Source: a virus (taxonomy: Duplodnaviria; Caudoviricetes). From it: a stretch of 64,000 nucleotides of DNA. The notes under the pieces are model-generated. The model ran no database searches and had not been told where the DNA came from. It saw nothing but the letters and a program-made list of their open reading frames with translations. The DNA lies in the IMG/VR virus record IMGVR_UViG_2974703250_000001, positions 13,567 to 77,566 of that record; one strand, given 5' to 3'. Both the position numbers and the translations under genes were made by a program. Positions 1-54,396 of this stretch are shown here, one piece after another (the stretch's first letter is position 1; each line of letters begins with the position of its first letter).

Positions 1-2252
1 TCCACATGCGCAAGGACCGCGCGTCTCAGTATGTGACGCCGGGTGCGTATGCGGGTGGCGGTCTGCTCAGCGGGCCGGGCACGGGTCGTAGCGATTCGAT
101 GTTGGCGCGGGTGTCGAACGGTGAGTTCATCATTCGGGCTGATTCGGTGGCTAAGTACGGTCGTGACTTCTTCTCGTTGCTGAACGAAGGTCAGCTACCG
201 AGGTTCGATGGTGGCGGTTTGGTGGACTTGATTCTGCCGCCGGGTGGTTCGAGTGTGCCGCCTCCTGCGCCTTCGCAGAGCCTTAACCCTGTTGACCTTG
301 CACGTGGTTTTCCGCGTTTCCCTGCCCAGAGTTCAGCTCCGGCCAATCGTTTCGATTCCCCGACGCCTCTGGACATGCTGCCTAAGCCGGTTATTCCGAT
401 GCCGGACCTTGCTAATCCGGGTCTCTACGATCCGGCGTCAGGCAAGTACGGTGCTGCGCCAGCGTCAGCGGTTCAGCAGCCGCTTAGGCCTGGTGTTGAT
501 GGAGACAAGGGTGAGGCGAGCGGGCCTAATGTGCCGCCGACCGATCCTCGTAGCCCTGGCTACAAGCAGCCAAATCACGGTTTGGGTGGGTCTCCTGGTC
601 CAGGTAATGGCACTCCGCATCTGACGGGTCCGGGTGGGACTCCGGTCAGCCCTGGGGTTGCTTCGGCGCTGCCATCTAACGGTGGTATTCCGGGGTTGAC
701 GCCTAGCGCTACTGATCCTTTGGGCCTAAGCGGTTTGCCTAAGGAAATTCAGCCGGTGACCATCTTGGAGCAGATCGGGGAGATTCTGCTTAGTGCGGTG
801 CTCGGGTTCTTCGGGCTTGATCCGACGTATTTCAATATCGGTAAGCGCATCTTTACTGGCCTTAAGGGTGATAAGCCTAATGAGGCTAATCCGGGTGTGC
901 AGTCGATTTTGGATGGATACAAGAATCCGCTGGCTGATGGGCAGAACCCCTATGTCGGTACGTCGATCTATGACACGCAGTTTGATCCGGCTTCGCAGCG
1001 GGCGTCGAACATGGCTGAGCTTATGCGCGGCAAGCCGTACACGTGGGGCGGTTCGACGCTAGACGGGACTGACTGTTCCGGCCTGGTGATGTACGTCGTC
1101 GATGCTTACGAGGGTAAGGAGTTCTCTGGCCGTACCGGCGGAACTGGCGGCTTCGCGTCGTCGCTTCCAGCCAAGGGCGGTGTGATCATTTCTGATCCGT
1201 CACAAGCGCCTCCGGGCACGTTGCGGGTGGGTTGGAATGCTTCACATACGGCAGGAACGCTGCCAGATGGCCGTAACTTTGAGTCAAGCACGTTTGGTAA
1301 GCCGATTGCGGTCGGCGGCGGCGCGTCGGGTTACAACGATCCACAGTTCACGAACTGGGCCTACTTCCCAGCTCCGGGGTACGCCAATGGCGGGTTCCTG
1401 AGCGGGGCCGGTACGGGCCGGTCGGATTCGATGCTGGCTCGGGTCAGTAACGGTGAGTTCATCACGCGGGCGTCGAGTGTCGCTAAGTACGGGCGCTCGC
1501 TGTTCGATGCGTTGAACGCCGGGACGATTGATCCGGGCATGTTGCCGGGGTTCGCGGACGGTACGCCTCCGATTCCGGGGCTGCCGGTGCCGGTTCCTCA
1601 GACGCCGCAGCAGGCCGGGCCGCTGCCTGATCCGAACGGACAGGACGCGCAGGCCGCGCAGCAGGTCACGGACACGGCAGCCAATGCGCTTGATGGCGTA
1701 GCTGGCGCGCTGAACGGCGTGAACATGGGCTCTAGTGGGGCCATTCCTGGCGCTGACGCTCCGGATGGTGCGCAGCAGGGTAAAGACCCACGGTCGATCC
1801 TTGGTGCGGCTCCGACGAATACCGACCACAACAACCCTGCTTTGTCTAAGGGCATTCAGGGCGCGTTTAGCACGGTTGGCTCTCTGGCGTCTATGGCGGC
1901 TTCGGCGGCGATGACGGCGGGGACGATGGGTGCTGGCGCGGCGGCTGGCCCGGCTGGCGGTGCTGCGGGTGCAGGCATTCAGGCTGGCGCGCAGATCGCG
2001 GGGCAGGTGGCAACGGGTGCGTTGAACATTCTGTCCAGCTTGCTTGTGGGTTCAGCTCCGGGTTCAACGGGGACGACGCAGAGCGCTTACGGCGCTCCGG
2101 TGTTGCCTCAGGGGCCTCCGCAGTCAAGCGGTGGTGGACCGGCTGTGGTTAACAACTACGGCGATATCCACACGGCTAACTACGACGAGTTCTACAAGGG
2201 ACAGCAGCGTAGGGAAGCGCAGCAGCAGGCACCAATCCTGCCGCAGCGATAG
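1..2252 (+). CDS. Tape measure protein, C-terminal part (5' truncated by window), with NlpC/P60-like peptidase domain
   Basis: Frame is open to the window edge and lies directly upstream of the minor tail genes. Two copies of the GG.LSG.GTGRSDSMLARVSNGEFI motif typical of actinophage TMP C-termini. GKPYTWGG...DCSG...HT resembles NlpC/P60. Confidence 0.85.
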   Translation, partial: HMRKDRASQYVTPGAYAGGGLLSGPGTGRSDSMLARVSNGEFIIRADSVAKYGRDFFSLLNEGQLPRFDGGGLVDLILPPGGSSVPPPAPSQSLNPVDLARGFPRFPAQSSAPANRFDSPTPLDMLPKPVIPMPDLANPGLYDPASGKYGAAPASAVQQPLRPGVDGDKGEASGPNVPPTDPRSPGYKQPNHGLGGSPGPGNGTPHLTGPGGTPVSPGVASALPSNGGIPGLTPSATDPLGLSGLPKEIQPVTILEQIGEILLSAVLGFFGLDPTYFNIGKRIFTGLKGDKPNEANPGVQSILDGYKNPLADGQNPYVGTSIYDTQFDPASQRASNMAELMRGKPYTWGGSTLDGTDCSGLVMYVVDAYEGKEFSGRTGGTGGFASSLPAKGGVIISDPSQAPPGTLRVGWNASHTAGTLPDGRNFESSTFGKPIAVGGGASGYNDPQFTNWAYFPAPGYANGGFLSGAGTGRSDSMLARVSNGEFITRASSVAKYGRSLFDALNAGTIDPGMLPGFADGTPPIPGLPVPVPQTPQQAGPLPDPNGQDAQAAQQVTDTAANALDGVAGALNGVNMGSSGAIPGADAPDGAQQGKDPRSILGAAPTNTDHNNPALSKGIQGAFSTVGSLASMAASAAMTAGTMGAGAAAGPAGGAAGAGIQAGAQIAGQVATGALNILSSLLVGSAPGSTGTTQSAYGAPVLPQGPPQSSGGGPAVVNNYGDIHTANYDEFYKGQQRREAQQQAPILPQR

Positions 2253-2271
2253 CTAAATACGGATAACGAGG

Positions 2272-2319
2272 TAAGGCCCGTGCGGGGGTGGTGTTAATCC
2301 ACCTACCGGCGGGCCTTAT
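2272..2319 (+). terminator. Long stem-loop between tape measure and first minor tail gene
   Basis: TAAGGCCCG...CGGGCCTTA outer stem with inner GGTGG/CCACC stem; no clear U-tract. Confidence 0.45.
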
Positions 2320-2342
2320 CCCGTTGGAAAGACAACTGAATA

Positions 2343-3230
2343 GTGACCGATTTTCTCAAGATCGAATTGATTGGTCGGGACGGTTCACACTGGGTGTTGT
2401 CCGGACCGGGCATGGGTCAGCAGGGCGTAACCCTGAATCCCAATTTGCAGCAGTTCTACGACGCACCGGTTAAGACGCTTTACGTTCCGGGGCCGTTTGG
2501 CGAGGAATACGCGGGTAAGCGCGTTCAGCGCCGCGAGATTGTGTTCTCAGTTCAGGCGTATGACGAAGACCCGGACACATGGAGCACCGTCGATTCCCTT
2601 TGGCGTTGGGCCTGGGATTACGACGAGGAGTCAGAGCTAAGGGTTACCACGAGTGACGGCACCCGCTTTCTAAAGGTGCGCCTCATGGAGGAACCCAAGC
2701 CGTATTACGAGAAAGACCCGCATATCACTGCGGATAACCCAATCGTGATGACGGTTACGGCGACGTTCCCGTATTGGCAGGACGAGCCGGAAGAACTTAT
2801 TTGGACGACGCTTAGCACCGAGGACATGACGCGCTTTCCAGTGCGGAATGACGGCGATGTTCCGGTGTGGCTTAAGTGGACGCTCACCGCGCCGGGTCTG
2901 TGGATTCTGCCGGACTTCTCGTGGGCGAACGACATGTACTCGCGCGGGCGTGAGGACTTGGGCCGGACTGTTGCGCTCCCGGAGCTGGTCTCTGGTGAAC
3001 ACGTCTCGGTCGATTCAGACCCGCGCGTTCAGACGCTTATCGCGGTCAACGGGATGCCGACGCAGAACCGGTGGAAGGGCAATGACCTGCTCTATCCGCT
3101 GATGCCGGGTAAGGGCGCGGAAATCCCTGTGCAGCTTAAGAAAGCGCCGGAGGGCGGGGCTTGCAAGTTGACGCGTCCGCGCTGGTATTCGCGTCCGTGG
3201 TCTCGGCCAGGGGTGCGTCTCAATGGCTAA
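2343..3230 (+). CDS. Minor tail protein (distal tail/Dit-like)
   Basis: First gene after the TMP; 295 aa; sequence resembles mycobacteriophage minor tail proteins. Confidence 0.8.
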   Translation: MTDFLKIELIGRDGSHWVLSGPGMGQQGVTLNPNLQQFYDAPVKTLYVPGPFGEEYAGKRVQRREIVFSVQAYDEDPDTWSTVDSLWRWAWDYDEESELRVTTSDGTRFLKVRLMEEPKPYYEKDPHITADNPIVMTVTATFPYWQDEPEELIWTTLSTEDMTRFPVRNDGDVPVWLKWTLTAPGLWILPDFSWANDMYSRGREDLGRTVALPELVSGEHVSVDSDPRVQTLIAVNGMPTQNRWKGNDLLYPLMPGKGAEIPVQLKKAPEGGACKLTRPRWYSRPWSRPGVRLNG

Positions 3231-4986
3231 CAACTGGACCGACATTCTCGCGGCTTCGGATGGCGATGAGTGGGCGGCATTCAAGACGATTGAGGCGCAG
3301 GCTGACGAGGTTCGGGCGGGGCACCAGGCGCTAAGGCGCGCTAAGCCGCTAATCCGACTTTGGATGAACAACCCGGACGGCTCGGAAGGGCTGGTGTACG
3401 TCGGACGTGTTGATTACGACGATACGATTCGCGGCTCATTCCCGTTTAAGAACAACACTCCGTCTCAGGGCGTGTTGGAACTGCGGGATGACAACTATCT
3501 AGCGGTCTGGCTTAAGCAGCTACCTAACAACCCTGAGCTTAAAAAGAACGTCGTTATCACGGTCGACTTCTACGGCGGTAAGAAGCGGTGGAGTGGACTT
3601 CTCGATAAGTGGACGATTAAGTCAAAGGAGCACGTTAAGTACCTAGAGGTCACTTTTAACGATGACCTCACTATGTTGCAGTATCTTTTGTGCCCGCCGA
3701 ATCCGGCATTGCCAATTCCGGTCCTACAATTTCCACGCATTTTCGGAATTGCTGGACCTGCAAAATGGGCCATTTCTACCCTAATTTTTATCAACCTATT
3801 TCGAGTTCAGGGTAACTTGTGGACTCTGCCGGATGACCCATTCAACTTGGAGTCTTGGGACGACATTCTGGATTGGTCGGATTGGCAGTGTTTCGTTAAG
3901 TCTGATTCGTTCCTGCTGGACGATTCTTCTGTTTGGACGTTCCTGTCCTCGCGGATGAATCCGGTGGACTCGATTATCGCTGACGCGTTGGATGATGCGC
4001 AGTTGACGATCACTTACCGGCGTGTGCTGACTGATGACGGTGAGACCGCAGAGGGATTCCCTGGCGCTCATGGCATTAAGAATGGCGCGCTTGTCTTTGA
4101 GATTGTCGATAACAGCAACGCTACGGCTCTTGAGGGCACGTTCTTCTCGGGCACGATTGTTGACGGTTTCGCGCGGTCGGTGCTGCTTTACGGCGGCGGG
4201 TTCGTCGAGGACACGCTAAGCGTCGTTAGCGACGACCAGACGTTGCAGCCTGACGAGTATTACCAGTCCGGGTGGCTGGCGACTATGGCGAAGATGCCGT
4301 GGCTCGTGGTCCGCGACAACGAATGGACGCCTATTGAGTCGTCTGATCTGTCGTGGGGACCGGCTAAGAACGTCAGCGTCATTGTGGGTGGCGATAACCC
4401 GGCTGCCGATGCCATTGCGAAGCTCATCATTGAGACGACCGGAAACCTGCTGGGGTATTTCCTGCTAGGTGGCTTTAGCTCTGCGGGCACGATTGCCGCA
4501 GACATCATTATGCCGTTCTTGGTCGGCACTATCGCGGCGTGGTTGCAGTGGAAGAACACGGGCCGGGCGACGGAGCTTGGTTGGGTTCATTACTGGGAGC
4601 TGTACCAGCAGGGCGCGGAAAGCAATAGCTGGTCGCTAGCTGCTTTGGCCGCTTTGCGTGGCGGGTTCCTGGTGGGACGCAGCGAGACGGTTCACCTAAT
4701 GGCGCTGCATGACTCTTGGATTATTCCGGGTCTGCATATCGACATTGGTCAGCGTATGGGTTCGACGGTCAATTCTAAGGGCGTCGAGAACATCGTTTGG
4801 GTTAACCAGCTAGAGGAAATGACCGCTGCCTGGGATAACACGGCGGGTCAGCCGATGCCTCTTTCTTGGGTGCTTAAGGCCGGTAAGTCGGAACGTGCCA
4901 TGTCTATTGGTGAACGGGTCGCGCGCTTGGCAAAGAAGATGAGCGAGGCGCTGAACAACGTGGGTGTCCACATTGTTCAGAGTTAA
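3223..4986 (+). CDS. Minor tail protein (baseplate hub-like)
   Basis: 587 aa; second gene after the TMP; RLWMNN...GRV and PLPIPVLQFPRIF segments resemble D29 gp28-like proteins. Confidence 0.8.
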   Translation: MANNWTDILAASDGDEWAAFKTIEAQADEVRAGHQALRRAKPLIRLWMNNPDGSEGLVYVGRVDYDDTIRGSFPFKNNTPSQGVLELRDDNYLAVWLKQLPNNPELKKNVVITVDFYGGKKRWSGLLDKWTIKSKEHVKYLEVTFNDDLTMLQYLLCPPNPALPIPVLQFPRIFGIAGPAKWAISTLIFINLFRVQGNLWTLPDDPFNLESWDDILDWSDWQCFVKSDSFLLDDSSVWTFLSSRMNPVDSIIADALDDAQLTITYRRVLTDDGETAEGFPGAHGIKNGALVFEIVDNSNATALEGTFFSGTIVDGFARSVLLYGGGFVEDTLSVVSDDQTLQPDEYYQSGWLATMAKMPWLVVRDNEWTPIESSDLSWGPAKNVSVIVGGDNPAADAIAKLIIETTGNLLGYFLLGGFSSAGTIAADIIMPFLVGTIAAWLQWKNTGRATELGWVHYWELYQQGAESNSWSLAALAALRGGFLVGRSETVHLMALHDSWIIPGLHIDIGQRMGSTVNSKGVENIVWVNQLEEMTAAWDNTAGQPMPLSWVLKAGKSERAMSIGERVARLAKKMSEALNNVGVHIVQS

Positions 4987-5009
4987 GAAGTTTAGGGGGT
5001 TTAGCCGAA

Positions 5010-5462
5010 ATGGCTAAAACGCAAGCAGAGTCCAATTTGGACGATCCAAAGGAAATGTTCGCGTGGATGTTCGCGGCGGGTGTTCCTGATCCTAGGAGCA
5101 ATGAGAAGGTTCAGTATCCGAATCAGCCGCTAATTCCGCCGCAGTGCTATCCGGCGCTTAGCGAGATGCTCTACAAGATGGGTGCTCGCTTTCACCCGGA
5201 TAAGCAAGAGCTGTGGGTTCAGGGCGCTACGGGCATTGAGCGCAACTTTGTTGTTGCGACGACGACGGACATTAAGCCGGAGGATATCGCGCCTGATGTG
5301 GCGGCGATGGTCGCTGATCAGTTCCCGGAGGTTGCCGCTCAGGTGGGGGCGGTTACTCCGGCCACTCACCAGGAGGCGCTACAGGCTCAGGCCGACAAGC
5401 TACTAGACAACCTTGCCCGCCTTAAGGCTGCGCGTGCGCAGATGGAGGGGGGTAAGAGCTAG
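5010..5462 (+). CDS. Minor tail protein (DUF2744-like)
   Basis: DDPKEMFAWMF...PLIPP...LSEMLYKMGARFHP pattern; position in the tail module. Confidence 0.7.
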   Translation: MAKTQAESNLDDPKEMFAWMFAAGVPDPRSNEKVQYPNQPLIPPQCYPALSEMLYKMGARFHPDKQELWVQGATGIERNFVVATTTDIKPEDIAPDVAAMVADQFPEVAAQVGAVTPATHQEALQAQADKLLDNLARLKAARAQMEGGKS

Positions 5463-8099
5463 ATGACGATGCCGAATGGCTCCGGGGGATTGGACCCCGG
5501 AGCCTGGCTCGCCCATTGGGTTAATCAGGCTGACCTTTCGTCGCTCGCTGGCCGTACCGAGACTGAGGTACGGGCGTACTTCGAGAACCTGGTTCAGGCC
5601 GACTCGGGTTGGGGCGATGCCTCTAACACGTTCTTCAACATGATCCTTGGCGGATTTCAGAACCTAAGCGAGTTCGTCACCCTCATTGTCCATGCGATCA
5701 CCGGTACGCCGGGCGGGCTTACCGACTTGCAGGCGTTCCTAACTGAACGCTGGGGCGATCTAGCAGACGCGTTTGAGTCCGTGGCTAACCTTATCGACGC
5801 TATCGCGGGTGAGGTTGGGTCAAGCCTGGCGGATGCTATCGCCAAGCTGGCTACGTTCCTTACGGAGCTGTCTCCGCTGAATGCCGGGATGCTGTTTGGC
5901 CTGATTGGCACGAACCACCTGCCGCTGTTGTCAGTCTCGCACATTGCGAATATCAACCCTGAGCTGCTTGTTAACGCCGGGTTCGACACGGACGTTTCGG
6001 TGGTCGATAACCCGTATTGGGATTGGGACGGCACGGTGGGCCGGACGGCTCCGCTGGGGTCGGTGAAGGTGGTCGCTGACGGCACGATTAAGGACTTGCT
6101 GTCTGGGCCTGACGCTATCCCGGTTGTTGAGGGCCAGAAGCTCAATGTGTCGGCGTGGTTTAAGTACGCGGGACTAGTCGCGGGCGCGGGTAGTGGTGCT
6201 ATCCGGTTGTCTGGCACTGCATATTCGGCTGACGGCGAGGTTGTGGCTTACCCGGACTTCGGGGGCGTTCCGGACGGGACAACGGGCACAGGCGATTGGG
6301 CGCAGATCACGGGTCAGTACGTGGTGCCAGCGGGTGTGACGCAGTTCAGGCTGCGGCTATCTGTGCGGGACAACGCGACCGCCGGAACGGTTTGGTTTGA
6401 CGACTGTTCGGTTAAGAAGGCTGGCCTGCTTCCGCAGGGGCTCGTGGATGGTCTGACGCAGGCGCTTAATGACCTGCTTACGTGGTTGGAATCGCTAGTA
6501 GACAACGTTCTGGCGGCGCTCGGTCTCGATCCCATCGGGACGATTGTGGACAAGATTCTGGACCTGGCCGACGAGTTCGGAGATTGGCTTGGGTCCACTG
6601 AGGACACGGCAGCGCACCTGACGAACCTTCTGTCCAACCTGCTGACCAATCCGGCTTCGGTGATTGGCCCGCTGGCGCAGTCGATGATTACGGGCCTTAC
6701 GGGCGCGCTAGGGAACCTAAACACTGCTATCAACCAGATCGGTGACGTTCTGGTCGGCACGGTGGTGACTCCGATTAACTCGGCAATCTCTAACGTGATC
6801 GACTGGTTTAACAGTCTGTTGAACTTTCAGGACACCACGGCGGCTAACCAGGTCAACCAGCAGAACTTTCAGATTGCCACCTTGGCAAGTGGCATTAAGA
6901 AGCAGCAGTGGGAGTGTCGTTATAGCACTGCTTTCGTCACGTTCCCTGAGATGTTTTGCGACTGGGGTTTCGCGCTAGGTGGTGTTACCGGCGCACAGTC
7001 GACGGGCACCGCACATACGCACATGCTGAACACTGACGGTCTTGCTGCGCTGCAACTTTCGATTTTGCCTGCGGGCTACGCGGTTGGTGGGTACATCGGC
7101 ATTTCGGACACGACCATCGTGGACACGCTTGCCATGAAGATGTACAAGGAGACCAGCTCGGCAATCAACAATGTTTACCTTGAGGTTTTCCGTGAAGATC
7201 CGACTGGGGCTCTAACGGTGGTTGGTTCCGTTGATGTATCGGGGCAGTTGACCACTACCAGTGACTATGTAGAAGCGGCTTTGCCTGCTGGCGTAATTGT
7301 TAATGCGGGTGAGCGGTATGTGGTTCGCATGCGGAACGCGTCGACTGTCGGTAACCGTGTCGGCATCTCGGTGATGAAGGAACTGGTTGGCGGGCGCGAA
7401 CTTAGCATTCGCACGGAAACCGCTGCCGACTCAAACAAGACCACTTATACGCCTTCGGAGGTTCTGGCCGCGCAGGGATTGTCGGTCATTATGCCGTGGG
7501 CGATGATGGCCGCTAAGAATCTCGCTACTACTGACCAGTCGTTTTCGGATGACTTTAACCGCTCTGCGATGGGTGGTTTGTGGTTCCTTAAGTCGGATAC
7601 CGGGACTAACCAAGTTGGTGTCTCTGGTGGTCGCGCGGCGTTTTCGGGCCTTACGGATGGAAACCAGAATGCGCTTTATATCCGGCCTACGGCGGGGGAT
7701 AAGCAATGGGTTGAAGCCAATCTCTATGAGACTGGTATTGCGGCTAGTGGCGCACGCGAAGGTCTGCTCATGCACGCTAATCGTGACCTTAGTCAGGTTG
7801 TGTACCTAGGCGTCAATCTGAATAGCGCGAAAATTTACACCGGTCCGTGGAACTCGTTGACTGAGCGTGCGTCTGTTAGCACTGCCGGTAATGACGTGCT
7901 GTGGCAGATGTATTTCGATCCTGCGACTGCGGCGTACACGGTGCTTAAGAACGGTCAGGCCAGCGGTCTTACGTGGACGGATAGCGGGTCAGTTGTTGCG
8001 CATGGACCGAACTACCGGTTCGGGGGTCTCCGTATTTCGCGTAGCACGTTCTTTAACGCGGGTCGGGTTGACAACTGGACGTTGAAGGACTGGACATAA
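5463..8099 (+). CDS. Large minor tail protein with carbohydrate-binding-like domains
   Basis: 878 aa; LLVNAGFD...VWFDDCSV galactose-binding-like segment; position in the tail module. Confidence 0.8.
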   Translation: MTMPNGSGGLDPGAWLAHWVNQADLSSLAGRTETEVRAYFENLVQADSGWGDASNTFFNMILGGFQNLSEFVTLIVHAITGTPGGLTDLQAFLTERWGDLADAFESVANLIDAIAGEVGSSLADAIAKLATFLTELSPLNAGMLFGLIGTNHLPLLSVSHIANINPELLVNAGFDTDVSVVDNPYWDWDGTVGRTAPLGSVKVVADGTIKDLLSGPDAIPVVEGQKLNVSAWFKYAGLVAGAGSGAIRLSGTAYSADGEVVAYPDFGGVPDGTTGTGDWAQITGQYVVPAGVTQFRLRLSVRDNATAGTVWFDDCSVKKAGLLPQGLVDGLTQALNDLLTWLESLVDNVLAALGLDPIGTIVDKILDLADEFGDWLGSTEDTAAHLTNLLSNLLTNPASVIGPLAQSMITGLTGALGNLNTAINQIGDVLVGTVVTPINSAISNVIDWFNSLLNFQDTTAANQVNQQNFQIATLASGIKKQQWECRYSTAFVTFPEMFCDWGFALGGVTGAQSTGTAHTHMLNTDGLAALQLSILPAGYAVGGYIGISDTTIVDTLAMKMYKETSSAINNVYLEVFREDPTGALTVVGSVDVSGQLTTTSDYVEAALPAGVIVNAGERYVVRMRNASTVGNRVGISVMKELVGGRELSIRTETAADSNKTTYTPSEVLAAQGLSVIMPWAMMAAKNLATTDQSFSDDFNRSAMGGLWFLKSDTGTNQVGVSGGRAAFSGLTDGNQNALYIRPTAGDKQWVEANLYETGIAASGAREGLLMHANRDLSQVVYLGVNLNSAKIYTGPWNSLTERASVSTAGNDVLWQMYFDPATAAYTVLKNGQASGLTWTDSGSVVAHGPNYRFGGLRISRSTFFNAGRVDNWTLKDWT

Positions 8100-8112
8100 A
8101 AGAGGGGGTTGT

Positions 8113-9195
8113 ATGTCATGGGGAGTATCCCCGCCAACCCTTATCGTCGCTCCCGTTAAAGGGTGGCTTACTGATCCTGTTAACACTCCGGCGGCTCCGG
8201 TTGCCGGTTGGTGGATTCAGTACAGCGCGTTAGCTGCCGCGATCATTACGATTATCGGCACGGCGGAAGCTACTGCCGTTGCGCAGGCTATCGCCACGCT
8301 TGGAATCACGAGCAGTGGCGACACCGAGCAGTTCCATTTTGTTGAGGCTAGCGCGCTTATCAACTTGGTTGCTTCGGCTTCCACGGTCGCTGTCGTTGAT
8401 GGCGTGCCGGGCTTGGTGGGCCTTACGGCTAGTGCCGGTGCGGTGCCGTCGTTGGCGGCGGATATTTCGTTCGCGTTGTCGACGGCAGCGGCCCAAGCGG
8501 TCGCTGTTGTCGACGCCTACGCGGCGCTGGTGGTGAATCCAAGCGGTACGGCGCTGGCGATTGCTGATGCAGTTGCCACGCTGAATGTGCTCGCGTCTGG
8601 AACGGCAGAGTTCCCGGCTAACGGGCCTACGTCTACGACGTACTCGGCTGTCGGCGCGTTCGCTTACCCGATTCCGTGGTGGAGCCGGTATGTCGACGAG
8701 GTTCTGTTGAGCGCTGGCGGCGGCGGGTCCGGTGGCGGCGTGGTGATTGGTGGCGCTGGCGGGCAGGGCGGCGAATGGCGCTGGCGGACTCTAGAGCGGG
8801 GTGTGGATATCCCGTGGGCGCAGACAGTCATTAACGGCTCCGTGGGCACTGGTGGTGTGCGTGGGGCTGGTGGCCCGTCTCCTGGCAATGGTTCGGCTGG
8901 CGGCGACACGGTAGGTACTCAGACCGCGCCGGGCGGGGCCGGAGGCGGTAGCTGGGGTGCTGGCGGCATGAATGGTGGGCCAGCTCGTAACGGCAACGCT
9001 ACTTCTGGCCGTGACGTGACGTTAAACGGCATCACCTACGTCGGTGGTGCGCAGGCATCGGTCAACGCTTCTGGCGTCGGACCGAACGGTAACCCTCCGG
9101 GTGGTGGCGCGTCGGGCGGTGGCGTCTTTTTTGGTATCGGGCAGAACGGTGGTACTGGCGCTAACGGTCAAGCGTGGTATCGGGCTTATCAATAA
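8113..9195 (+). CDS. Minor tail protein, Gly-rich C-terminus
   Basis: Ala-rich N-terminal half; YPIPWW...GGGGSGGG Gly-rich domain typical of mycobacteriophage tail proteins. Confidence 0.75.
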   Translation: MSWGVSPPTLIVAPVKGWLTDPVNTPAAPVAGWWIQYSALAAAIITIIGTAEATAVAQAIATLGITSSGDTEQFHFVEASALINLVASASTVAVVDGVPGLVGLTASAGAVPSLAADISFALSTAAAQAVAVVDAYAALVVNPSGTALAIADAVATLNVLASGTAEFPANGPTSTTYSAVGAFAYPIPWWSRYVDEVLLSAGGGGSGGGVVIGGAGGQGGEWRWRTLERGVDIPWAQTVINGSVGTGGVRGAGGPSPGNGSAGGDTVGTQTAPGGAGGGSWGAGGMNGGPARNGNATSGRDVTLNGITYVGGAQASVNASGVGPNGNPPGGGASGGGVFFGIGQNGGTGANGQAWYRAYQ

Positions 9196-9215
9196 TCGAA
9201 TAGGGAAAACTGAAT

Positions 9216-9557
9216 ATGGCTTTTACTACAGGCGCGAAGAACGACGCCGTTAATGCCACGGTCACTGGTTATACCTGGATCAGCCTGCATACGGGTGATC
9301 CAGGTACAACCGGCGCTAACGAGGCCAGTGGTGGCTCTTATGCGCGAAAGCAAACGACGTGGCCTACGTCTACGGTTGGCGTTTCGCTGGGCTCTAAGGT
9401 GTCATTTACCAACCTGATCGCCGCTGGTTACACACATTACGGCGTGTGGTCTGCGGCTAGCGGTGGAACGTTCCGGTTTGGGAACCCGCTGTCTCCCGGC
9501 GTGACGCTTAACGGTCCGGGTGGTATCGACGTGACTCCGAAGTGTGAGTTTCCGTAA
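9216..9557 (+). CDS. Small minor tail protein
   Basis: SLHTGDPGTTGANEASGGSYARK motif common in phage tail proteins. Confidence 0.7.
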   Translation: MAFTTGAKNDAVNATVTGYTWISLHTGDPGTTGANEASGGSYARKQTTWPTSTVGVSLGSKVSFTNLIAAGYTHYGVWSAASGGTFRFGNPLSPGVTLNGPGGIDVTPKCEFP

Positions 9558-10492
9558 TGCTTAGCGTCGGACCGATTATGGAGACGCTGACCCTAACGGT
9601 GGGCAGCGCATTTGAGATTCCGGGGTGGAAGCTCCGGGGTGAGTATCCGGCGGGAACTACGTCGCATCTGGTATTTACTGATGCGGCGGGCGGGACGCTG
9701 GGCGAGTTTGAGGGCACGGTCAGCGCTAAGGAAATTCACTACCTGCAAGCGCCGGACGATGTTAAGGACATTCCGCATGGGGCGAACTTTCAACTGTTCG
9801 TGACCTATCCGTCTATGCAGCCTCAGTGCTTGTATTACGGGACGGCGATCCGTAAGGAACCTAGGTATCCGCTTAGCACGGTGGTTAGTCCTGAGGACTC
9901 GGCTGTGCAGTACAAGGCGAACTTTATTGGTGAGTACATCGGGCCTATGTGGAAGCCGATGGGTAACGGCTGGGGCTCGCTTGGTATTCACACGCACGCG
10001 TTGATTTCGGAAGTCCCGTCTATGGGTCCGAATTACTCGCTGTTCTCGTCTGCGGCTGCGCGTTGGCTTTGGTCAATGAACATGGATTCGGTAACCATCG
10101 TGGTCCGGGTTCTTAACGTCGGCGCGGGCAAGTTCAACGTGATCGTTTGCGCCGATTATCAGATGCAAACCTATCTCGGCATTCAGTTCGAGACGGGCAT
10201 TAGTAACAACAAGGTTCATGTCATCACTGGTGATGGCCCGCTGGACTGGGATTACCAGGGCGCAGCGGTAGATAACACCACGGCTAACGGCGACGTTTAC
10301 ACGATCAAGTACAACGATCTGCTGGACACGATTTCGTGTTACAAGGGCACTTCGTTGACGCCACTCATTGAGGCTTCGGGGCTAGATGTTCCGCACGGTG
10401 AGGGCTTCCGCTATACGGGCTTGGCATGGAATACCGCGCTGCTTTCTCCGGGTGTTGAACCTACGGCTTGGGAAGCTAAGGACGGTGTTTAG
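9557..10492 (+). CDS. Minor tail protein with beta-sandwich (ConA-like) C-terminus
   Basis: Last large gene before the lysis cassette; beta-rich C-terminal domain. Confidence 0.65.
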   Translation: MLSVGPIMETLTLTVGSAFEIPGWKLRGEYPAGTTSHLVFTDAAGGTLGEFEGTVSAKEIHYLQAPDDVKDIPHGANFQLFVTYPSMQPQCLYYGTAIRKEPRYPLSTVVSPEDSAVQYKANFIGEYIGPMWKPMGNGWGSLGIHTHALISEVPSMGPNYSLFSSAAARWLWSMNMDSVTIVVRVLNVGAGKFNVIVCADYQMQTYLGIQFETGISNNKVHVITGDGPLDWDYQGAAVDNTTANGDVYTIKYNDLLDTISCYKGTSLTPLIEASGLDVPHGEGFRYTGLAWNTALLSPGVEPTAWEAKDGV

Positions 10493-10728
10493 TGGGATTC
10501 ATTGAGTCTCTAATTGAGAAGATCGCGGTTGAGGTTGCTAAGCAAGTGGCCGCTAAGTTGGCGGATGAACTTGGCGACCTAGCGGGGGATATCTCTAAGC
10601 AAGTTGTCGATGAGGTCGGCGAAGTAGCAGGCGAGATTTCTAAGTCGGTTATCTCGGAGATTTCCGATTCGGTGCAGGGCATTGCGGGTCAACTGATTAA
10701 GGCCGTCACTGGCGGCTTCTTTAAGTAG
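10492..10728 (+). CDS. Small acidic hypothetical protein before lysin A
   Basis: Overlaps the upstream stop by 1 nt; repetitive amphipathic helix. Confidence 0.55.
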   Translation: MGFIESLIEKIAVEVAKQVAAKLADELGDLAGDISKQVVDEVGEVAGEISKSVISEISDSVQGIAGQLIKAVTGGFFK

Positions 10729-10733
10729 GCCGC

Positions 10734-11906
10734 ATGGCTCCATTGGGACAGTTAACGGTTAATTCCAGTCCTGATGACGTAGCGGAAGCGATTATCAAGG
10801 AAACGATTGCGCGCGGGTACACGCGCGATGAGTCGATTGCTTGCGATTCGACGCTTAGGCAGGAATCCGGGCTGCGAATGGTCTGGGACTCAAGTAAGCG
10901 CTGGTTCGGCTACGCACAGCAGGACGCTAGTTATTCAGACCGGATGGACCCGAATGGGAACCTCCGGGGGTTCTTGAATCGGTTGGACGTTAAGCGCAAG
11001 AGCGCGGGGGCGTCACCGGATATCTGGAAGAACATCTTTTGGCTACAGCAGCGTCCGGGAGAACCGACTGCTGACATCGCTTACGCGAATGGACGCAAGG
11101 CGTATTTGACGGAGATTAAGCAGCACGTTGCGCAAGCGACTGCTGACTATGAGAAGTATTCGGGGGGTGGTGTTGTCGTGCCAGATAATCGGCCCGACTT
11201 CAACGAGTATTCGATTTGGAGTCCGAACTATTCATCGCGCGGTGGTGTTAAGCCGACGATGTTCCTTTTGCATACGCAGGAGGGTGATGGTAACGCGGAC
11301 TCGCTGGCGAAGTATTTCACTTCCGCTAGTCAGGTTAGTTATCACTACACGATCAGTAAGGGCGCTAACGACGACGGCGTGACGGTCGTGGATTGCGTGG
11401 ACACGGATTACGGGTCGTGGTCGGTTGGTAACGCCAACTCGGTTTCGATCAATCTGTGCTTCGCGGGCTCTAAGGCGAGCTGGTCGCGTGAGCAGTGGCT
11501 TGTTAAGGCTGGCCGCGCTATCGACGTGGCCGCGTATCTGGCGGTCCAGGACGCTAAGAAGTACGGCTTCTCGACGCTGGTTGTGCCGCCGCCGTACACG
11601 AACGGCAAGCCGGGAATCAGCGACCACCAGTGGGTCACGAAGGTGTTCGGCTGGGGGACGCACACGGACGTGGGTCCGAACTTCCCTTGGGACGCCCTGA
11701 CGGCCTCTGTGGCGAAGTATTTGGGCGCTGCGGTACCGGAGACCCCGGCGGGCTTCACGTACCCGTCTACGGACGTGATGATCCGCGAGATTTGGGAGCA
11801 GCTACGCGGGCCGCAGGGCAAGGGCTGGCCTCAGCTCGGGCAGAACGCCAACGGGCAGAACCTATCGCTGGTCGACGCTATCGCGGAGCTTAAGGCGGCG
11901 GCCTAA
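10734..11906 (+). CDS. lysA: Lysin A (N-acetylmuramoyl-L-alanine amidase endolysin)
   Basis: Amidase-2 residues LLHTQEG, SYHY, SINLCFAG and HTDVG; C-terminal IREIWEQLRGPQGKGWPQLG cell-wall-binding motif. Confidence 0.92.
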   Translation: MAPLGQLTVNSSPDDVAEAIIKETIARGYTRDESIACDSTLRQESGLRMVWDSSKRWFGYAQQDASYSDRMDPNGNLRGFLNRLDVKRKSAGASPDIWKNIFWLQQRPGEPTADIAYANGRKAYLTEIKQHVAQATADYEKYSGGGVVVPDNRPDFNEYSIWSPNYSSRGGVKPTMFLLHTQEGDGNADSLAKYFTSASQVSYHYTISKGANDDGVTVVDCVDTDYGSWSVGNANSVSINLCFAGSKASWSREQWLVKAGRAIDVAAYLAVQDAKKYGFSTLVVPPPYTNGKPGISDHQWVTKVFGWGTHTDVGPNFPWDALTASVAKYLGAAVPETPAGFTYPSTDVMIREIWEQLRGPQGKGWPQLGQNANGQNLSLVDAIAELKAAA

Positions 11907-12928
11907 TGGCTGCCGGGCCGGACGGCAAGTGGATTGGCTACGGGCTGGGGGACTCTGGTCTCCCAGTCCTTAACGCCATCCAGAAGCTAAAGGCGAAGTT
12001 CTCTTACGCGAAGCAGTTGGTGGAGACCACGCTCTACACCGACGAGCTAGTGCCGGTGCTCGTGGAGTATCAGCTCCGGAAGAACGTTGAGTTCTGGGCT
12101 GCCGGTAAGAAGCTGTTGCGGACGGACGGGATTCTCGACTACGCCACGCAGGTAGCGCTAGGGGTGGTCGCTCCGGCTCCGTTGGTCAAGCCGCTGTTGT
12201 TCACGGTTCACGGCACGGGGCAGCCGGTGTCAGATGGGCCGGGCCTGCCTGCTGACACTGCACGCGCGGTGCTCGACAAGTGGGACTGGCAGCCTATCGG
12301 TAACTATCCGGCGAATCCGTTCCCCATGTGGCCGTCGATTCAGGATGGGGTTGAGGAACTTAGGGTCCAGATTCGTAAGGCGCTGGCCGCTAACCCGAAC
12401 CGCAAGCTCGGTCTGGCGGGGTACTCGCAGGGTGCCATCGTGGTCTGCCTGGTGTTTAAGTACGACTTCCAGGCTGAGGACGGCGAGTTCCACCAGGCGT
12501 ATAAGAACGGGCAGCTTATCGCGGGCGTTACGTGGGGTAACCCGATGCGTGAGCGCGGCGTTCAGCACGCGGATAACTGGAAGGAAATTGCGCCCGCTGA
12601 CACGTGCGGAATCCTTGACGACCTTATGGTCGATACCCCGTCGTTCTGGCGTGAGTATGCCCATAAGAAGGACATGTACGCGGCGTGCGAGTTGAACCAG
12701 AACGGCGATAACAAGCGCGCTATCTGCAAGATCGTTATGTGGCATGACGTGCTTAAGGGGCAGAACAGCATTATTGCGCAGATCGCGGAGCTTCTACAGA
12801 AGCCGGTCCTGTATGTCATTCCGTTGTTCCAGTCGCTTATCGACGCGGGCATGTTCTTCGCGGCTGGGCTTAACTCGCCTCACGCTTACGCGATTGGCCC
12901 GGCCATTGATTATCTAAGGAGTATTTAG
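11906..12928 (+). CDS. lysB: Lysin B (cutinase-like mycolylarabinogalactan esterase)
   Basis: FTVHGTG, GYSQGA nucleophile elbow, GNPMR, D and H catalytic candidates; N-terminal peptidoglycan-binding-like segment. Confidence 0.92.
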   Translation: MAAGPDGKWIGYGLGDSGLPVLNAIQKLKAKFSYAKQLVETTLYTDELVPVLVEYQLRKNVEFWAAGKKLLRTDGILDYATQVALGVVAPAPLVKPLLFTVHGTGQPVSDGPGLPADTARAVLDKWDWQPIGNYPANPFPMWPSIQDGVEELRVQIRKALAANPNRKLGLAGYSQGAIVVCLVFKYDFQAEDGEFHQAYKNGQLIAGVTWGNPMRERGVQHADNWKEIAPADTCGILDDLMVDTPSFWREYAHKKDMYAACELNQNGDNKRAICKIVMWHDVLKGQNSIIAQIAELLQKPVLYVIPLFQSLIDAGMFFAAGLNSPHAYAIGPAIDYLRSI

Positions 12929-16523: not shown

Positions 16524-16638
16524 GCGCGCGTGTCTCCTACCGCACTTAGGTAACCACTAGTTCTCTGATCTGTTCGCTTACTCAACGTGAGTTGCGTTAG
16601 GGAGAGGATTAGGTTTTCGTTTCACAACCACATCTCAA

Positions 16639-17043
16639 GGTGACACTAGGTGGGTTGTTGTCGTCGCCTTAGTCGGGAACGGTACTAGCGACTCTCCTTG
16701 AAGAATCTTCTGCGGTTTTGCGATCTTCTGGAAATCTTAAGAAATTTCCTCATGGGAACCTCAGGCCCGGAAGTGGCCCCCGACATGTCCGCAGGTACAC
16801 GCCCTGTACAGCCCTGACCTGCGCCGACAGCGTTCTTAGTTGACACTTTTGGTGACACCTGACGAGAAAAAGCCTCTGACCTGCATGTTCTTAGCGGCAT
16901 CAGGGGATTAAAAGTCCGTAGAGGCAGGTGCTATCGTGCCAGGTGCGACATGTCAAACACGCAGCTAAGCGGGGTTTAGCACGCCTGTGCAGGCTTATGC
17001 AGGCACCGCGTAGTTGACACCTGTTGTTGACACTAGTTGACAC
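16639..17043. other. attP region with integrase arm-type repeats and candidate core at 16905-16921
   Basis: Non-coding gap before int. G(T/G)TGACAC repeats at 16639, 16839, 16851, 17013, 17026 and 17036. Core reverse complement CTACGGACTTTTAATCC is a tRNA-Lys(UUU) anticodon arm. Confidence 0.8.
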
Positions 17044-17057
17044 CTGGGAGGGTTCAG

Positions 17058-18365
17058 ATGGCCGAGACCGAGGAAAAAAATAAGAGGCGCAAGAGGGGTG
17101 ACGGAGGTCTCACTTACGACCCAAAGCGCGGCCTGTACATCGGCACCGTATGGGATAAGTGGCCGGACGGGAGGCCGCGCCAGCGCCGCGTCTCGTCAAA
17201 GAAAGAATCGGTGGCCGTAACGAAGCTGAACACGCTTCGCGCGGACGTTCTCAGCGGCAAGGCCGCGACGACGAACAAGACCATGACGGTTAGTGAGTGG
17301 CTGGACAAGTGGCTGGTGATCAAAAAGGCTGAGGTCCGGCCCAAGTCCTACGACAGCTACGAACTCGCGGTCCGGCTCTATATCAAGCCGCACATCGGGG
17401 ACAAGCGGTTGTCCAAGTTGACGGCGGCTGACGTGCGCGCCATGCAGACGGCGGTACAGAAAGGCACCAAGGGCATTAAGGGGTCTACCCGGAGCGCTCA
17501 GAAGGCCCACCAGACCCTCAACATGGCCCTCACGCAGGCCGTCCACGACGAGCACCTACACCGCAACCCATGCGTAGCCGTGAAGTTCCCCAAGCATGCA
17601 AAGAAGCAGCGTGGCGTGTTCGAGACGAGCGCGGCGGTTCACATTCTGCGGACGGCGGCGAAACGTGACGACGAGGACGACGCTAAGCGGCCTAAGCTCG
17701 CGTCCCGGTGGGTGGCCGCGTTTATGACCGGCGCGCGGCAAGCCGAGTGCATCGGTTTGGAGCTGGACCGTATCGACTTCAAGAACGACGTTATGGATAT
17801 CTCGTGGCAGTTGCAGCGGCTTTCGTATGACCACGGCTGCGGAGAGCCCGACGCTGACGGTAAGTACCCGTGCGGGCGGGTGCGAGTGGGGTACTGCCCG
17901 ACCCGCAAGTTCAACCCGCCACCCGGATTCGAGTACCGGCCCTGTCATCACTCGCTGTTCTGGACCCGGCCTAAGAGCTACGCCGGAGAACGGGTGGTTC
18001 CAATGGCACCGCTACTGAAAGAGTCGCTTAAGGTCCATATCCAGATGGATAAAGACCCGAACCCTTACGGGCTGGTGTGGCATCACCGAGACGGTAGGCC
18101 GATAAGCCAAGAGGACGATAACGAACAGTGGAACATGCTGATGGCTGCTGCTGGCGTCGATAAGAAGGCCGGAGAGGCTGTATTGCACGAGGCCCGGAAT
18201 ACGTCAGCGACGATGCTTCTAGAGTCGGGCGTTGACGTTAAGGTCATTCAGCAGATATTGGGGCACGCGTCGATCTTGCAGACGCGGGAATACCAGCGGG
18301 TGAGTTTGGAGCTGAGCAAGAGCGCCGTTAGTAATGCTTTCGACGCTCTGCTCCCGAACCTCTAG
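17058..18365 (+). CDS. int: Tyrosine integrase
   Basis: Catalytic R (TGARQAE), HEAR, LGH and Y (REYQ); N-terminal arm-binding and SAM-like domains; GGGAGG RBS before ATG 17058. Confidence 0.95.
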   Translation: MAETEEKNKRRKRGDGGLTYDPKRGLYIGTVWDKWPDGRPRQRRVSSKKESVAVTKLNTLRADVLSGKAATTNKTMTVSEWLDKWLVIKKAEVRPKSYDSYELAVRLYIKPHIGDKRLSKLTAADVRAMQTAVQKGTKGIKGSTRSAQKAHQTLNMALTQAVHDEHLHRNPCVAVKFPKHAKKQRGVFETSAAVHILRTAAKRDDEDDAKRPKLASRWVAAFMTGARQAECIGLELDRIDFKNDVMDISWQLQRLSYDHGCGEPDADGKYPCGRVRVGYCPTRKFNPPPGFEYRPCHHSLFWTRPKSYAGERVVPMAPLLKESLKVHIQMDKDPNPYGLVWHHRDGRPISQEDDNEQWNMLMAAAGVDKKAGEAVLHEARNTSATMLLESGVDVKVIQQILGHASILQTREYQRVSLELSKSAVSNAFDALLPNL

Positions 18366-19323: not shown

Positions 19324-19704
19324 TCACAGAGGGGGTATGTCTGTGCGCGCCTTCGGCTTACTCATCCGGGGTTTCGGTCTTCGGACCACCCTCAAGATCG
19401 TTGCTTGTGGAGGGTTTGCCAGTTCTTCGTCAGCAATTACCTCTCCCTCGCGTTCTAGGTACGTGAGCAGGTCCGTTTTATCTAAGTGACCGAATCGGAC
19501 TAATAGGTCAACTTTGTCTAGGCCGAAGTGGTCGGCCAGCGCCATGAGGTTGGGGATGCTATTGAGCACCCCTTTGTCCCGCTGTTCGTAGTAGGTGGAG
19601 CGGGACATGCCCAGTGCGCCCAGCGCCTCCTGCATGCGTACCTGCCTCTTGAGTAGGTACGAGATGACCACTATCAGGTCGTTGTCTTCATCTTTGGCCG
19701 ACAT
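19324..19704 (-). CDS. Immunity repressor (HTH)
   Basis: Leftward HTH gene (ALGALGMSRSTYYEQR...LMALADHFGL) next to int and divergent from Cro-like and Xis genes. Confidence 0.75.
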   Translation of the reverse strand: MSAKDEDNDLIVVISYLLKRQVRMQEALGALGMSRSTYYEQRDKGVLNSIPNLMALADHFGLDKVDLLVRFGHLDKTDLLTYLEREGEVIADEELANPPQATILRVVRRPKPRMSKPKARTDIPPL

Positions 19705-19799: not shown

Positions 19800-20141
19800 A
19801 ACTTGAGACGACACCGGATTGTGATGTGTATGTTTCATCTCGTGCCGATCACAACCGCCTCACAGCCCAGCTACAAGATCGAGTGGATTCCCGAAGCCGT
19901 CGAGAACCTGCTCCACAACCACGACATTCTGAACCGCAACGAGCTAGCTAAAGAACTCAAAGTATCCAGGTCACGCGTCTACGAGACGTTTTCTGAGAAC
20001 TGGTCGGGCCGCGCCAGCATGAGGGTTCTGGAAGCCATGTGCGGACACTTCCGCGTACCGATCAGCCGCATCGTTACCGAGCCGGGTCGAGCGTCTGCCC
20101 AAGCTCGTGCCCGCCGACAGACTGTCCGGAAAACCGTATGA
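19782..20141 (+). CDS. Cro-like HTH protein
   Basis: RNELAKELKVSRSRVYETF HTH; divergent from the repressor; true start probably downstream of 19782. Confidence 0.75.
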   Translation: MSGKSDNLRRHRIVMCMFHLVPITTASQPSYKIEWIPEAVENLLHNHDILNRNELAKELKVSRSRVYETFSENWSGRASMRVLEAMCGHFRVPISRIVTEPGRASAQARARRQTVRKTV

Positions 20142-20353
20142 GCACGAACACAGTCGGACTGTCCGATGAACCGGACCGAGTTCTGGTGACCAGGCCCGAG
20201 GCCGCGCGCATCCTCTCCCTAAGCCTTCGGGAGGTGGACAACCTGCGCCGGAGCGGACGGCTGATGGCCAAGAAGCACGGAGCCAAGGTGCTGTTCCCGG
20301 TCGAAGAACTCGAACGCTTCGCCAACGACCTCCCGTGGGAGGTCGACCAGTGA
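20138..20353 (+). CDS. xis: Excisionase (HTH_17-like)
   Basis: LVTRPEAARILSLS..EV..LRRSGRL..KKHG.KVLFP..ELERF pattern; ATGA overlap with the Cro-like gene. Confidence 0.8.
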   Translation: MSTNTVGLSDEPDRVLVTRPEAARILSLSLREVDNLRRSGRLMAKKHGAKVLFPVEELERFANDLPWEVDQ

Positions 20354-54127: not shown

Positions 54128-54323
54128 CTTATTGGCGCTTAATCGTCACACTGGCTATGTGGCCGTGTTTCTCGATTTCGTGCTGTACCGCTTCGGCTGC
54201 TAGTTCACGTATGAACGTCTTAGCGGTGAGCGGTCCGACTAACTTAAAGTCCTCTATCAACTTGTCTAGGTCCATTGTGCAGACGAGTGTGATGAGGAAT
54301 TGACCTTTAGGGCGTTGCATGGG

Positions 54324-54396
54324 TGCCCCCACTAGGGATCGAACCTAGGACCCGATGATTAAAAGTCACCTGCTCTGCCAACTGAGCTATAGGGGC
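54324..54396 (-). tRNA. tRNA-Lys(TTT), the only leftward tRNA
   Basis: Reverse complement GCCCCTATAGCTCAGTTGGCAGAGCAGGTGACTTTTAATCATCGGGTCCTAGGTTCGATCCCTAGTGGGGGCA. Confidence 0.92.

What the first reader, a model, noticed from the sequence alone, without database searches (positions are those of the whole stretch)
16905..16921. Short attP core matching only a tRNA-Lys(UUU) anticodon arm: likely tRNA-dependent lysogeny
Seen: the reverse complement CTACGGACTTTTAATCC lies between arm-type repeats, and neither flank supplies a tRNA 5' or 3' half. It matches the mycobacterial tRNA-Lys(UUU) anticodon arm as I remember it. Established: in tRNA-dependent lysogeny, integration destroys the host tRNA and a phage tRNA of the same isotype complements it. 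The phage has such a tRNA at 54324-54396.
Basis: partly seen in the sequence, partly recalled or inferred. Interest (0 to 1): 0.72.

Follow-up and report, generated by a model that had tools for sequence, protein, structure and literature searches.

The report
Known tRNA-dependent lysogeny attP core
The 17-base stretch is the attachment-site core of a Cluster L mycobacteriophage; it matches only the anticodon arm of the host tRNA-Lys(UUU), so integration should break that tRNA and the phage's own tRNA-Lys(UUU) replaces it, as published in 2024 for its closest relative.

Summary

- **The phage.** The window is an L4-like Cluster L mycobacteriophage (Bromdenvirus). It is 92% identical in DNA to phage Chaser over 12 kb.
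- **The core.** The reverse complement of 16905-16921 equals positions 25-41 of tRNA-Lys(UUU) in Mycolicibacterium and other Mycobacteriales. It is present in 258 of 301 genus genomes, mostly once; a reversed control is present in none. Identity stops at once on both sides, so the common core is exactly 17 bp.
- **Its setting.** The core lies between TAGTTGACAC arm-type repeats, 137 bp upstream of a tyrosine integrase that is 91% identical to Chaser Int.
- **Effect on the host tRNA.** ARAGORN finds no tRNA at either simulated junction.
- **The replacement tRNA.** The phage tRNA-Lys(UUU) at 54322-54396 (minus strand) is 75/75 identical to Chaser's.
- **Prior publication.** Guerrero-Bustamante and Hatfull (mBio 2024, PMC10865867) list L4 Chaser as attB-4, 17-bp core, no tRNA reconstruction, phage tRNA present. 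They showed that Chaser attP-int plasmids transform M. smegmatis only when they carry the phage tRNA-Lys-TTT.

Nothing was tested experimentally for this particular phage. Interest is low. One small unexplained point remains: the phage tRNA is the most host-like of the six phage tRNAs I could pair with host genes, except in its anticodon stem, which is where the core lies.

The parts
16905..16921 (-). attP common core, 17 bp, identical to positions 25-41 (anticodon arm) of host tRNA-Lys(UUU), the attB-4 site
   Evidence: It is identical in Chaser, Douge and Bromden, while the bases next to it on the P' side vary (A1).
16837..16858 (+). P' arm: arm-type integrase-binding repeat TAGTTGACAC (16837-16846) plus a degenerate copy (16849-16858)
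   Evidence: Both are conserved across six Cluster L phages.
17011..17043 (+). P arm: three arm-type repeats at 17011, 17024 and 17034, just upstream of int
16637..16646 (+). Possible distal arm-type site (GGTGACAC), conserved in all six aligned phages
   Evidence: (D2). Its role is inferred only.
17058..18365 (+). Tyrosine integrase, 435 aa
   Evidence: Pfam Phage_integrase 1.1e-18 and Phage_int_SAM_3 2e-11. It is 91% identical to Chaser gp35.
19324..19704 (-). Immunity repressor homologue
   Evidence: tblastn with Chaser gp37, annotated as immunity repressor: 92% identity over 127 aa.
19842..20141 (+). Cro homologue
   Evidence: 83% identity to Chaser gp38.
20138..20353 (+). Excise (recombination directionality factor) homologue
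   Evidence: 93% identity to Chaser gp39, annotated as excise.
54322..54396 (-). Phage tRNA-Lys(UUU), leftward transcribed, the predicted complement of the disrupted host tRNA
   Evidence: ARAGORN. The fold shows the acceptor, D and anticodon stems. It is 75/75 identical to Chaser's tRNA-Lys(ttt).

Best explanation
The window comes from a temperate Cluster L (L4-like, Bromdenvirus) mycobacteriophage. The region from about 16630 to 17050 is its attP site, and 16905-16921 is the 17-bp common core. The tyrosine integrase (17058-18365) binds the flanking TAGTTGACAC arm sites and the core. It then recombines attP with attB-4, the anticodon arm of the host's tRNA-Lys(UUU) gene. Because attP carries only tRNA positions 25-41, one junction joins the tRNA 5' part to phage DNA and the other joins phage DNA to the tRNA 3' part. 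The host tRNA is therefore destroyed. The prophage's own tRNA-Lys(UUU) (54322-54396, minus strand) then decodes AAA, so it is needed for lysogens to survive. Shown here: the anatomy, the exact extent of identity, the loss of the tRNA at simulated junctions, and near-identity to the tested Chaser system. Inferred: actual integration at attB-4 by this phage, expression of the tRNA in lysogens, and its requirement for lysogeny.
For: The 17-mer equals tRNA-Lys(UUU) positions 25-41 in many Mycobacteriales. It is present in 258 of 301 genus genomes, mostly once, and the reversed control is absent. Identity ends on both sides of the 17-mer. ARAGORN finds the tRNA in four host attB contexts and none in any of the eight simulated junctions. 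The core is central between significant arm-type repeats and lies 137 bp upstream of a tyrosine integrase. The core is invariant in the L4 phages while the adjacent P' side bases vary. Int is 91% identical to Chaser Int and the phage tRNA is 75/75 identical to Chaser's. Repressor, cro and excise homologues are present. PMC10865867 Table 2 lists L4 Chaser as attB-4, 17-bp core, no reconstruction, phage tRNA present. Chaser plasmids without the tRNA (pCG69, pCG70, pCG71) do not transform, pCG75 with the tRNA does, and attL was confirmed by PCR.
Against: There is no experiment on this phage. The M. smegmatis mc2 155 sequence itself was not read here. The link to it rests on other Mycolicibacterium species and on the paper's statement for Chaser, whose core is identical. 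No Cluster-L-like prophage or natural junction was found in the 301 genus genomes searched, so there is no natural lysogen to inspect. No sigma-70 consensus promoter was detected upstream of the tRNA, so expression in lysogens is unshown. Close relatives such as Bromden have the same attP but lack the tRNA and are suspected not to lysogenise, so attP alone does not guarantee lysogeny.
Confidence: 0.9

Rival explanations
1. Classical tRNA-site integration: the phage integrates at tRNA-Lys(UUU), but attP supplies enough of the gene to rebuild a working tRNA at one junction, so the phage tRNA is dispensable.
For: Most mycobacteriophage tyrosine integrases work this way, with 30-50 bp cores (PMC10865867 Table 2). 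A 53-kb element in M. canariasense uses the same tRNA with the same left boundary at position 25 and does rebuild it.
Against: Identity with the tRNA stops after 17 bp on both sides. ARAGORN finds no tRNA in any simulated junction.
Confidence: 0.02
2. The 17-bp match is coincidental or vestigial, and the real crossover site or attB lies elsewhere.
For: A 17-nt match somewhere in a 7-Mb genome is expected about 0.4 times for a 504-bp spacer. Fionnbharth tRNA mutants can use secondary sites at very low frequency.
Against: The expectation for a hit in this one tRNA gene is about 4e-6. The core is centred between arm-type sites. It is invariant across L4 phages while the adjacent P' side bases diverge. 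Related integrases in clusters K and L all target attB-4. No longer match to any of 301 genus genomes was seen.
Confidence: 0.03
3. The integration module is intact in sequence but the phage does not form stable lysogens, for example because the tRNA is not expressed in lysogens or another defect exists. In that case the tRNA serves lytic translation only.
For: Cluster L relatives Rumpelstiltskin and Bromden lack the tRNA-Lys-TTT gene; Rumpelstiltskin forms clear plaques and gave no lysogenic survivors, and Bromden was not tested. No consensus promoter was found upstream of the tRNA.
Against: This phage keeps the tRNA-Lys(UUU), identical to Chaser's, in the leftward orientation typical of the lysogeny-competent members. 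Repressor, cro, excise and int are all intact.
Confidence: 0.05

Closest known systems
Mycobacteriophage Chaser (Subcluster L4) attP/Int/tRNA-Lys-TTT, tRNA-dependent lysogeny (Guerrero-Bustamante and Hatfull, mBio 2024, PMC10865867)
   Same: The 17-bp core, the arm-type repeats and the gene order are identical. Int is 91% identical, the tRNA-Lys(UUU) is 75/75 identical and has the same leftward orientation after tRNA-Asn. The target is the same, attB-4.
   Different: The attP-int region is about 87% identical in DNA. The bases beside the core on the P' side differ. This phage's genome is 77,566 bp against 76,685 bp for Chaser. This phage is untested.
Fionnbharth (Subcluster K4), the founding example of tRNA-dependent lysogeny
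   Same: It uses the same attB-4 in tRNA-Lys(UUU), has a related integrase phamily, does not rebuild the tRNA, and needs a phage tRNA-Lys-TTT.
   Different: Its core is 10 bp, not 17 bp. It belongs to an unrelated genome cluster and carries a single tRNA gene rather than an array of 14.
Boilgate (K8) and other classical tRNA-reconstituting integrations at attB-4
   Same: They use the same host tRNA gene and a related integrase family, and the crossover is in the anticodon region.
   Different: Their 38/43-bp core carries the tRNA 3' half, so a functional tRNA is rebuilt at attL and no phage tRNA is needed. Here the 3' half is absent.
LeBron (L1), Gabriela (L2), Whirlwind (L3) and Baudelaire (L5) attP sites
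   Same: All are Cluster L phages at attB-4 and all use tRNA-dependent lysogeny.
   Different: Their core lengths are 17, 13, 9 and 14 bp. The two other Cluster L phages aligned here (Crossroads, called L2 from memory, and MkaliMitinis3; both genus Faithunavirus) carry a T-to-C change inside the core on the + strand. The integrase region is only about 75% identical in DNA to the window.

Membership tests
tRNA-dependent lysogeny (Guerrero-Bustamante and Hatfull 2024) | A tyrosine integrase with an adjacent attP flanked by arm-type sites | tested here: met
   Pfam Phage_integrase and SAM-like N-terminal domain. Arm-type repeats lie on both sides of the core.
tRNA-dependent lysogeny (Guerrero-Bustamante and Hatfull 2024) | The attP core matches a sequence inside a host tRNA gene | tested here: met
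   The 17-mer equals tRNA-Lys(UUU) positions 25-41 in Mycolicibacterium species and is present in 258 of 301 genus genomes. M. smegmatis itself is covered only through the paper's entry for the identical Chaser core.
tRNA-dependent lysogeny (Guerrero-Bustamante and Hatfull 2024) | The common core is too short to rebuild a functional tRNA at attL or attR | tested here: met
   Identity is exactly 17 bp. ARAGORN finds no tRNA in eight simulated junctions, and finds the tRNA in all four attB controls.
tRNA-dependent lysogeny (Guerrero-Bustamante and Hatfull 2024) | The phage encodes a tRNA with the same anticodon as the disrupted host tRNA | tested here: met
   tRNA-Lys(ttt) at 54322-54396, minus strand. 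The fold shows the acceptor, D and anticodon stems. It is identical to Chaser's.
tRNA-dependent lysogeny (Guerrero-Bustamante and Hatfull 2024) | The host tRNA is single-copy and essential | tested here: inconclusive
   The 17-mer is single-copy in most genomes. In M. canariasense the only other anticodon-loop matches are an element remnant and a tRNA array. Essentiality and single-copy status in M. smegmatis are taken from the paper.
tRNA-dependent lysogeny (Guerrero-Bustamante and Hatfull 2024) | The phage tRNA is required for viable integration and lysogeny | not testable with these tools
   This was shown for Chaser-derived plasmids (with and without the tRNA) in the paper, not for this phage.
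Cluster L / Subcluster L4 (Bromdenvirus) mycobacteriophages | Genome-wide nucleotide similarity and synteny with L4 members | tested here: met
   92% identity to Chaser, 89% to Douge and 91% to Bromden over window 1-12000. The attP-int region is 86.5-87% identical. The repressor, cro and excise genes are in the same order.
Classical tRNA-reconstituting integration (Boilgate-type) | attP carries the 3' part of the tRNA gene (a common core of about 30-50 bp) | tested here: not met
   There is no similarity beyond tRNA position 41 and no tRNA at the junctions.

The most novel reading that the evidence does not exclude
The phage tRNA-Lys(UUU) may have been selected to copy the host tRNA closely everywhere except the anticodon stem, so that it replaces the host tRNA without being a good attB for the phage's own integrase. 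The attP core and the phage tRNA lie on the same strand, so recombination between them would delete about 37 kb. Against the commonest host sequence, 7 of the 11 differences fall in 12 stem-region positions (Fisher p = 1e-4), and the changes preserve pairing. Only 11 bp of the 17-bp core are shared with the phage tRNA. Among six phage tRNAs paired with host genes, tRNA-Lys(UUU) is the most host-like outside the stem (12% different, against 18-30% for the others) yet differs at 5 of 10 stem positions. Counter-evidence: other phage tRNAs also vary in this stem (Ala 6/10, Ile 4/10). An unrelated tRNA-array tRNA-Lys(UUU) also differs there. The paper speculates that the plasmid-borne tRNA gene can serve as an attB for tandem integration.
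Probability: 0.15. Interest if true: 0.4.

Novelty: already known. Interest (0 to 1): 0.12.

Why it matters
It also gives a clean annotation of attP, int, excise and the complementing tRNA in this phage. In practice it predicts three things. Deleting the phage tRNA-Lys(UUU) should give a clear-plaque, lytic derivative. Integration vectors built from this attP-int need the tRNA. The 17-bp target is conserved across most of the mycobacterial genus genomes searched and in many other Mycobacteriales. It adds no new biology beyond the 2024 paper.

Tried and rejected
**Natural lysogens.**
- I queried the attP-int DNA against 301 genomes of the genus. Only weak integrase-fragment hits came back, with no junctions.
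- M. canariasense has the 17-mer without a tRNA 5' half (L010). This turned out to be the displaced 3' remnant of a classical 53-kb element whose other end carries an intact tRNA. That element's integrase shares only the generic catalytic motif with the window's Int. It is therefore not an example of this system.

**Other 17-mer copies without a tRNA.**
- I looked at L009, L045, L115 and L008 for nearby integrases. L045 lies beside a ParA gene on a plasmid, and the neighbouring ORF in L009 has no Pfam hit and no similarity to Int. I did not pursue these further.

**Other steps.**
- A sigma-70 promoter scan upstream of the phage tRNA found nothing.
- My first integrase coordinates (17060) were out of frame; the correct start is 17058.
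I therefore could not read mc2 155 directly.

Full report
**What the window is.** The window is bases 13567-77566 of a 77,566-bp virus record. Its structural region is 92% identical to Mycobacterium phage Chaser, 89% to Douge and 91% to Bromden. The attP-int region is 86.5-87% identical to those three phages and about 75% identical to other Cluster L phages. It is therefore an L4-like Cluster L phage of the genus Bromdenvirus. It carries 14 tRNA genes: 13 rightward at 50.2-54.1 kb, and one leftward tRNA-Lys(ttt) at 54322-54396.

**The observation.** The reverse complement of 16905-16921 is CTACGGACTTTTAATCC. It occurs once in the phage genome, even with 2 mismatches allowed.

These came from Mycobacterium, Mycolicibacterium, Rhodococcus, Nocardia, Gordonia, Corynebacterium, Dietzia, Williamsia, Rothia and others. 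In the nine loci where ARAGORN found a tRNA gene, the 17-mer sits at positions 25-41 of a 74-76-nt tRNA-Lys(ttt) gene. That gene lies divergent from tRNA-Glu, with tRNA-Asp and, in eight of the nine loci, tRNA-Phe following. Of 119 contexts, 113 have the tRNA flanks.

Within the genus, 258 of 301 genomes hold the exact 17-mer, nearly always once. The reversed control is found in none.

In tRNA orientation, the base before the 17-mer is T in attP and G in the host. The base after it is C in attP and G in the host. There is no similarity beyond these points. The common core is therefore exactly 17 bp. It spans the last D-stem base, nt 26, the 5' strand of the anticodon stem, the loop, and three of the five bases of the 3' strand.

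**Significance.** A 17-nt match between the 504-bp spacer and a whole 7-Mb genome is expected about 0.4 times. A match to this one 76-nt gene is expected about 4e-6 times. The match matters because of where it falls.

**Anatomy of attP.**
- TAGTTGACAC repeats lie at 16837 (with a degenerate copy at 16849) on one side of the core.
- Three more lie at 17011, 17024 and 17034 on the other side. All are on the + strand.
- The motif is enriched: 8 matches against 2.5 expected, and 0 of 100 shuffles reach 8. Four of the eight lie within about 210 bp of each other around the core.
- The integrase gene starts at 17058 and runs to 18365 (435 aa). It has the Phage_integrase catalytic domain and the SAM-like N-terminal domain.
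- In a six-phage alignment the core is identical in the window, Chaser, Douge and Bromden, while the bases next to it on the P' side vary.
- Crossroads and MkaliMitinis3 carry one internal substitution in the core. This fits the shorter uninterrupted cores reported for L2 and L3.
- Homologues of Chaser's immunity repressor (19324-19704, minus strand), cro (19842-20141) and excise (20138-20353) are present at 83-93% identity.

**Consequence of integration.** I built both recombinant junctions in silico with four different Mycolicibacterium attB contexts. ARAGORN recovers tRNA-Lys in every attB control and finds no tRNA in any of the eight junctions or in attP itself. Integration at this core would therefore inactivate the host gene.

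**The complementing tRNA.** The phage tRNA-Lys(UUU) folds with the acceptor, D and anticodon stems of a cloverleaf; the minimum-energy fold does not draw the canonical T-arm. It is 75/75 identical to Chaser's annotated tRNA-Lys(ttt). It sits in the same place and orientation, leftward after tRNA-Asn.

**Comparison with the literature.** Guerrero-Bustamante and Hatfull (mBio 2024, PMC10865867) defined tRNA-dependent lysogeny with Fionnbharth (K4) and extended it to Cluster L.
[quoted passage not shown] - They also note that the tRNA-Lys-TTT of most Cluster L phages is leftward transcribed, as it is here.
- The window's Int is 91% identical to Chaser's.

The finding is thus a correct rediscovery of a published system in a close relative of a phage that was tested at the bench.

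**Limits.**
- Nothing was tested for this phage itself.
- I could not read M. smegmatis mc2 155 directly. The link to it is the identical Chaser core plus other Mycolicibacterium genomes.
- No natural Cluster-L-like lysogen was found in the 301 genus genomes searched.
- No consensus promoter was seen upstream of the tRNA.

**A small residual point.** Against the commonest host sequence, the phage tRNA differs at 11 positions. Seven of them fall in the 12 anticodon-stem-region positions (26-31 and 39-44), and the changes preserve pairing (Fisher p = 1e-4). Only 11 bp of the 17-bp core are shared with the phage tRNA.

I paired six phage tRNAs with host genes from one complete genome. Among them, tRNA-Lys(UUU) is the most host-like outside the stem (7 of 59 positions differ, against 10-18 of about 58 for the others), yet it differs at 5 of 10 stem positions.

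The attP core and the phage tRNA are in direct orientation, so recombination between them would delete about 37 kb. Selection against self-targeting is therefore conceivable. However, stem variation is also seen in other phage tRNAs, and the published speculation is that the phage tRNA gene can act as an attB. I rate this idea at about 0.15.

**Verdict.** The system is already known, so interest is low.

Noticed in passing
L123:1472-1547 and L124/L010 (G001 contig C49, 63744-116870): Mycolicibacterium canariasense carries a roughly 53-kb element at the same tRNA-Lys(UUU). The tRNA is intact at one end. At the other end is a remnant that starts exactly at tRNA position 25 and runs to the 3' end. 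This is classical reconstituting integration with the same left boundary as the window's core. The adjacent integrase (L010:3831-4820, minus strand) shares only the catalytic motif with the window's Int.
   Followed up: partly
L122:566-2309 (G001 contig C9) and G038 contig C2 about 16-21 kb: There are dense tRNA arrays in Mycolicibacterium genomes, probably prophage- or plasmid-borne. One has 10 tRNAs in under 2 kb. On contig 2 of G038, about 28 different anticodons were found. Both include a tRNA-Lys(UUU) whose anticodon stem differs from the host's.
   Followed up: no
L045:6449-6465 (Mycobacterium sp. M23085 plasmid, 22,990 bp); L009:1210-1226; L115; L008:5069-5085: The exact 17-mer occurs without a tRNA gene in four places. 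One is next to a ParA gene on a small mycobacterial plasmid, with 21 bp of identity to the tRNA. One is in a Mycobacterium MAG, with about 30 bp of identity. One is in L115, where the surroundings were not examined beyond ARAGORN finding no tRNA. One is in a Gammaproteobacteria MAG, fused to what looks like a tRNA 3' half. No integrase was found beside the first two.
   Followed up: partly
L127 (Bromden) aligned to window 16903-16921: Bromden's attP matches the host tRNA for two extra bases (19 bp), although the paper reports that Bromden lacks a tRNA-Lys-TTT gene.
   Followed up: no
window 54322-54396 versus 16905-16921: The phage tRNA-Lys(UUU) is the most host-like of the six phage tRNAs that I paired with host genes, except in its anticodon stem. 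It shares only 11 of the 17 core bases and lies in direct orientation with the attP core.
   Followed up: partly
window 16685-16900 (minus strand): A 71-codon ORF overlaps the P' arm of attP. No gene is annotated at the corresponding place in Chaser, Douge, Bromden, Crossroads or MkaliMitinis3, so it is probably not a gene.
   Followed up: no
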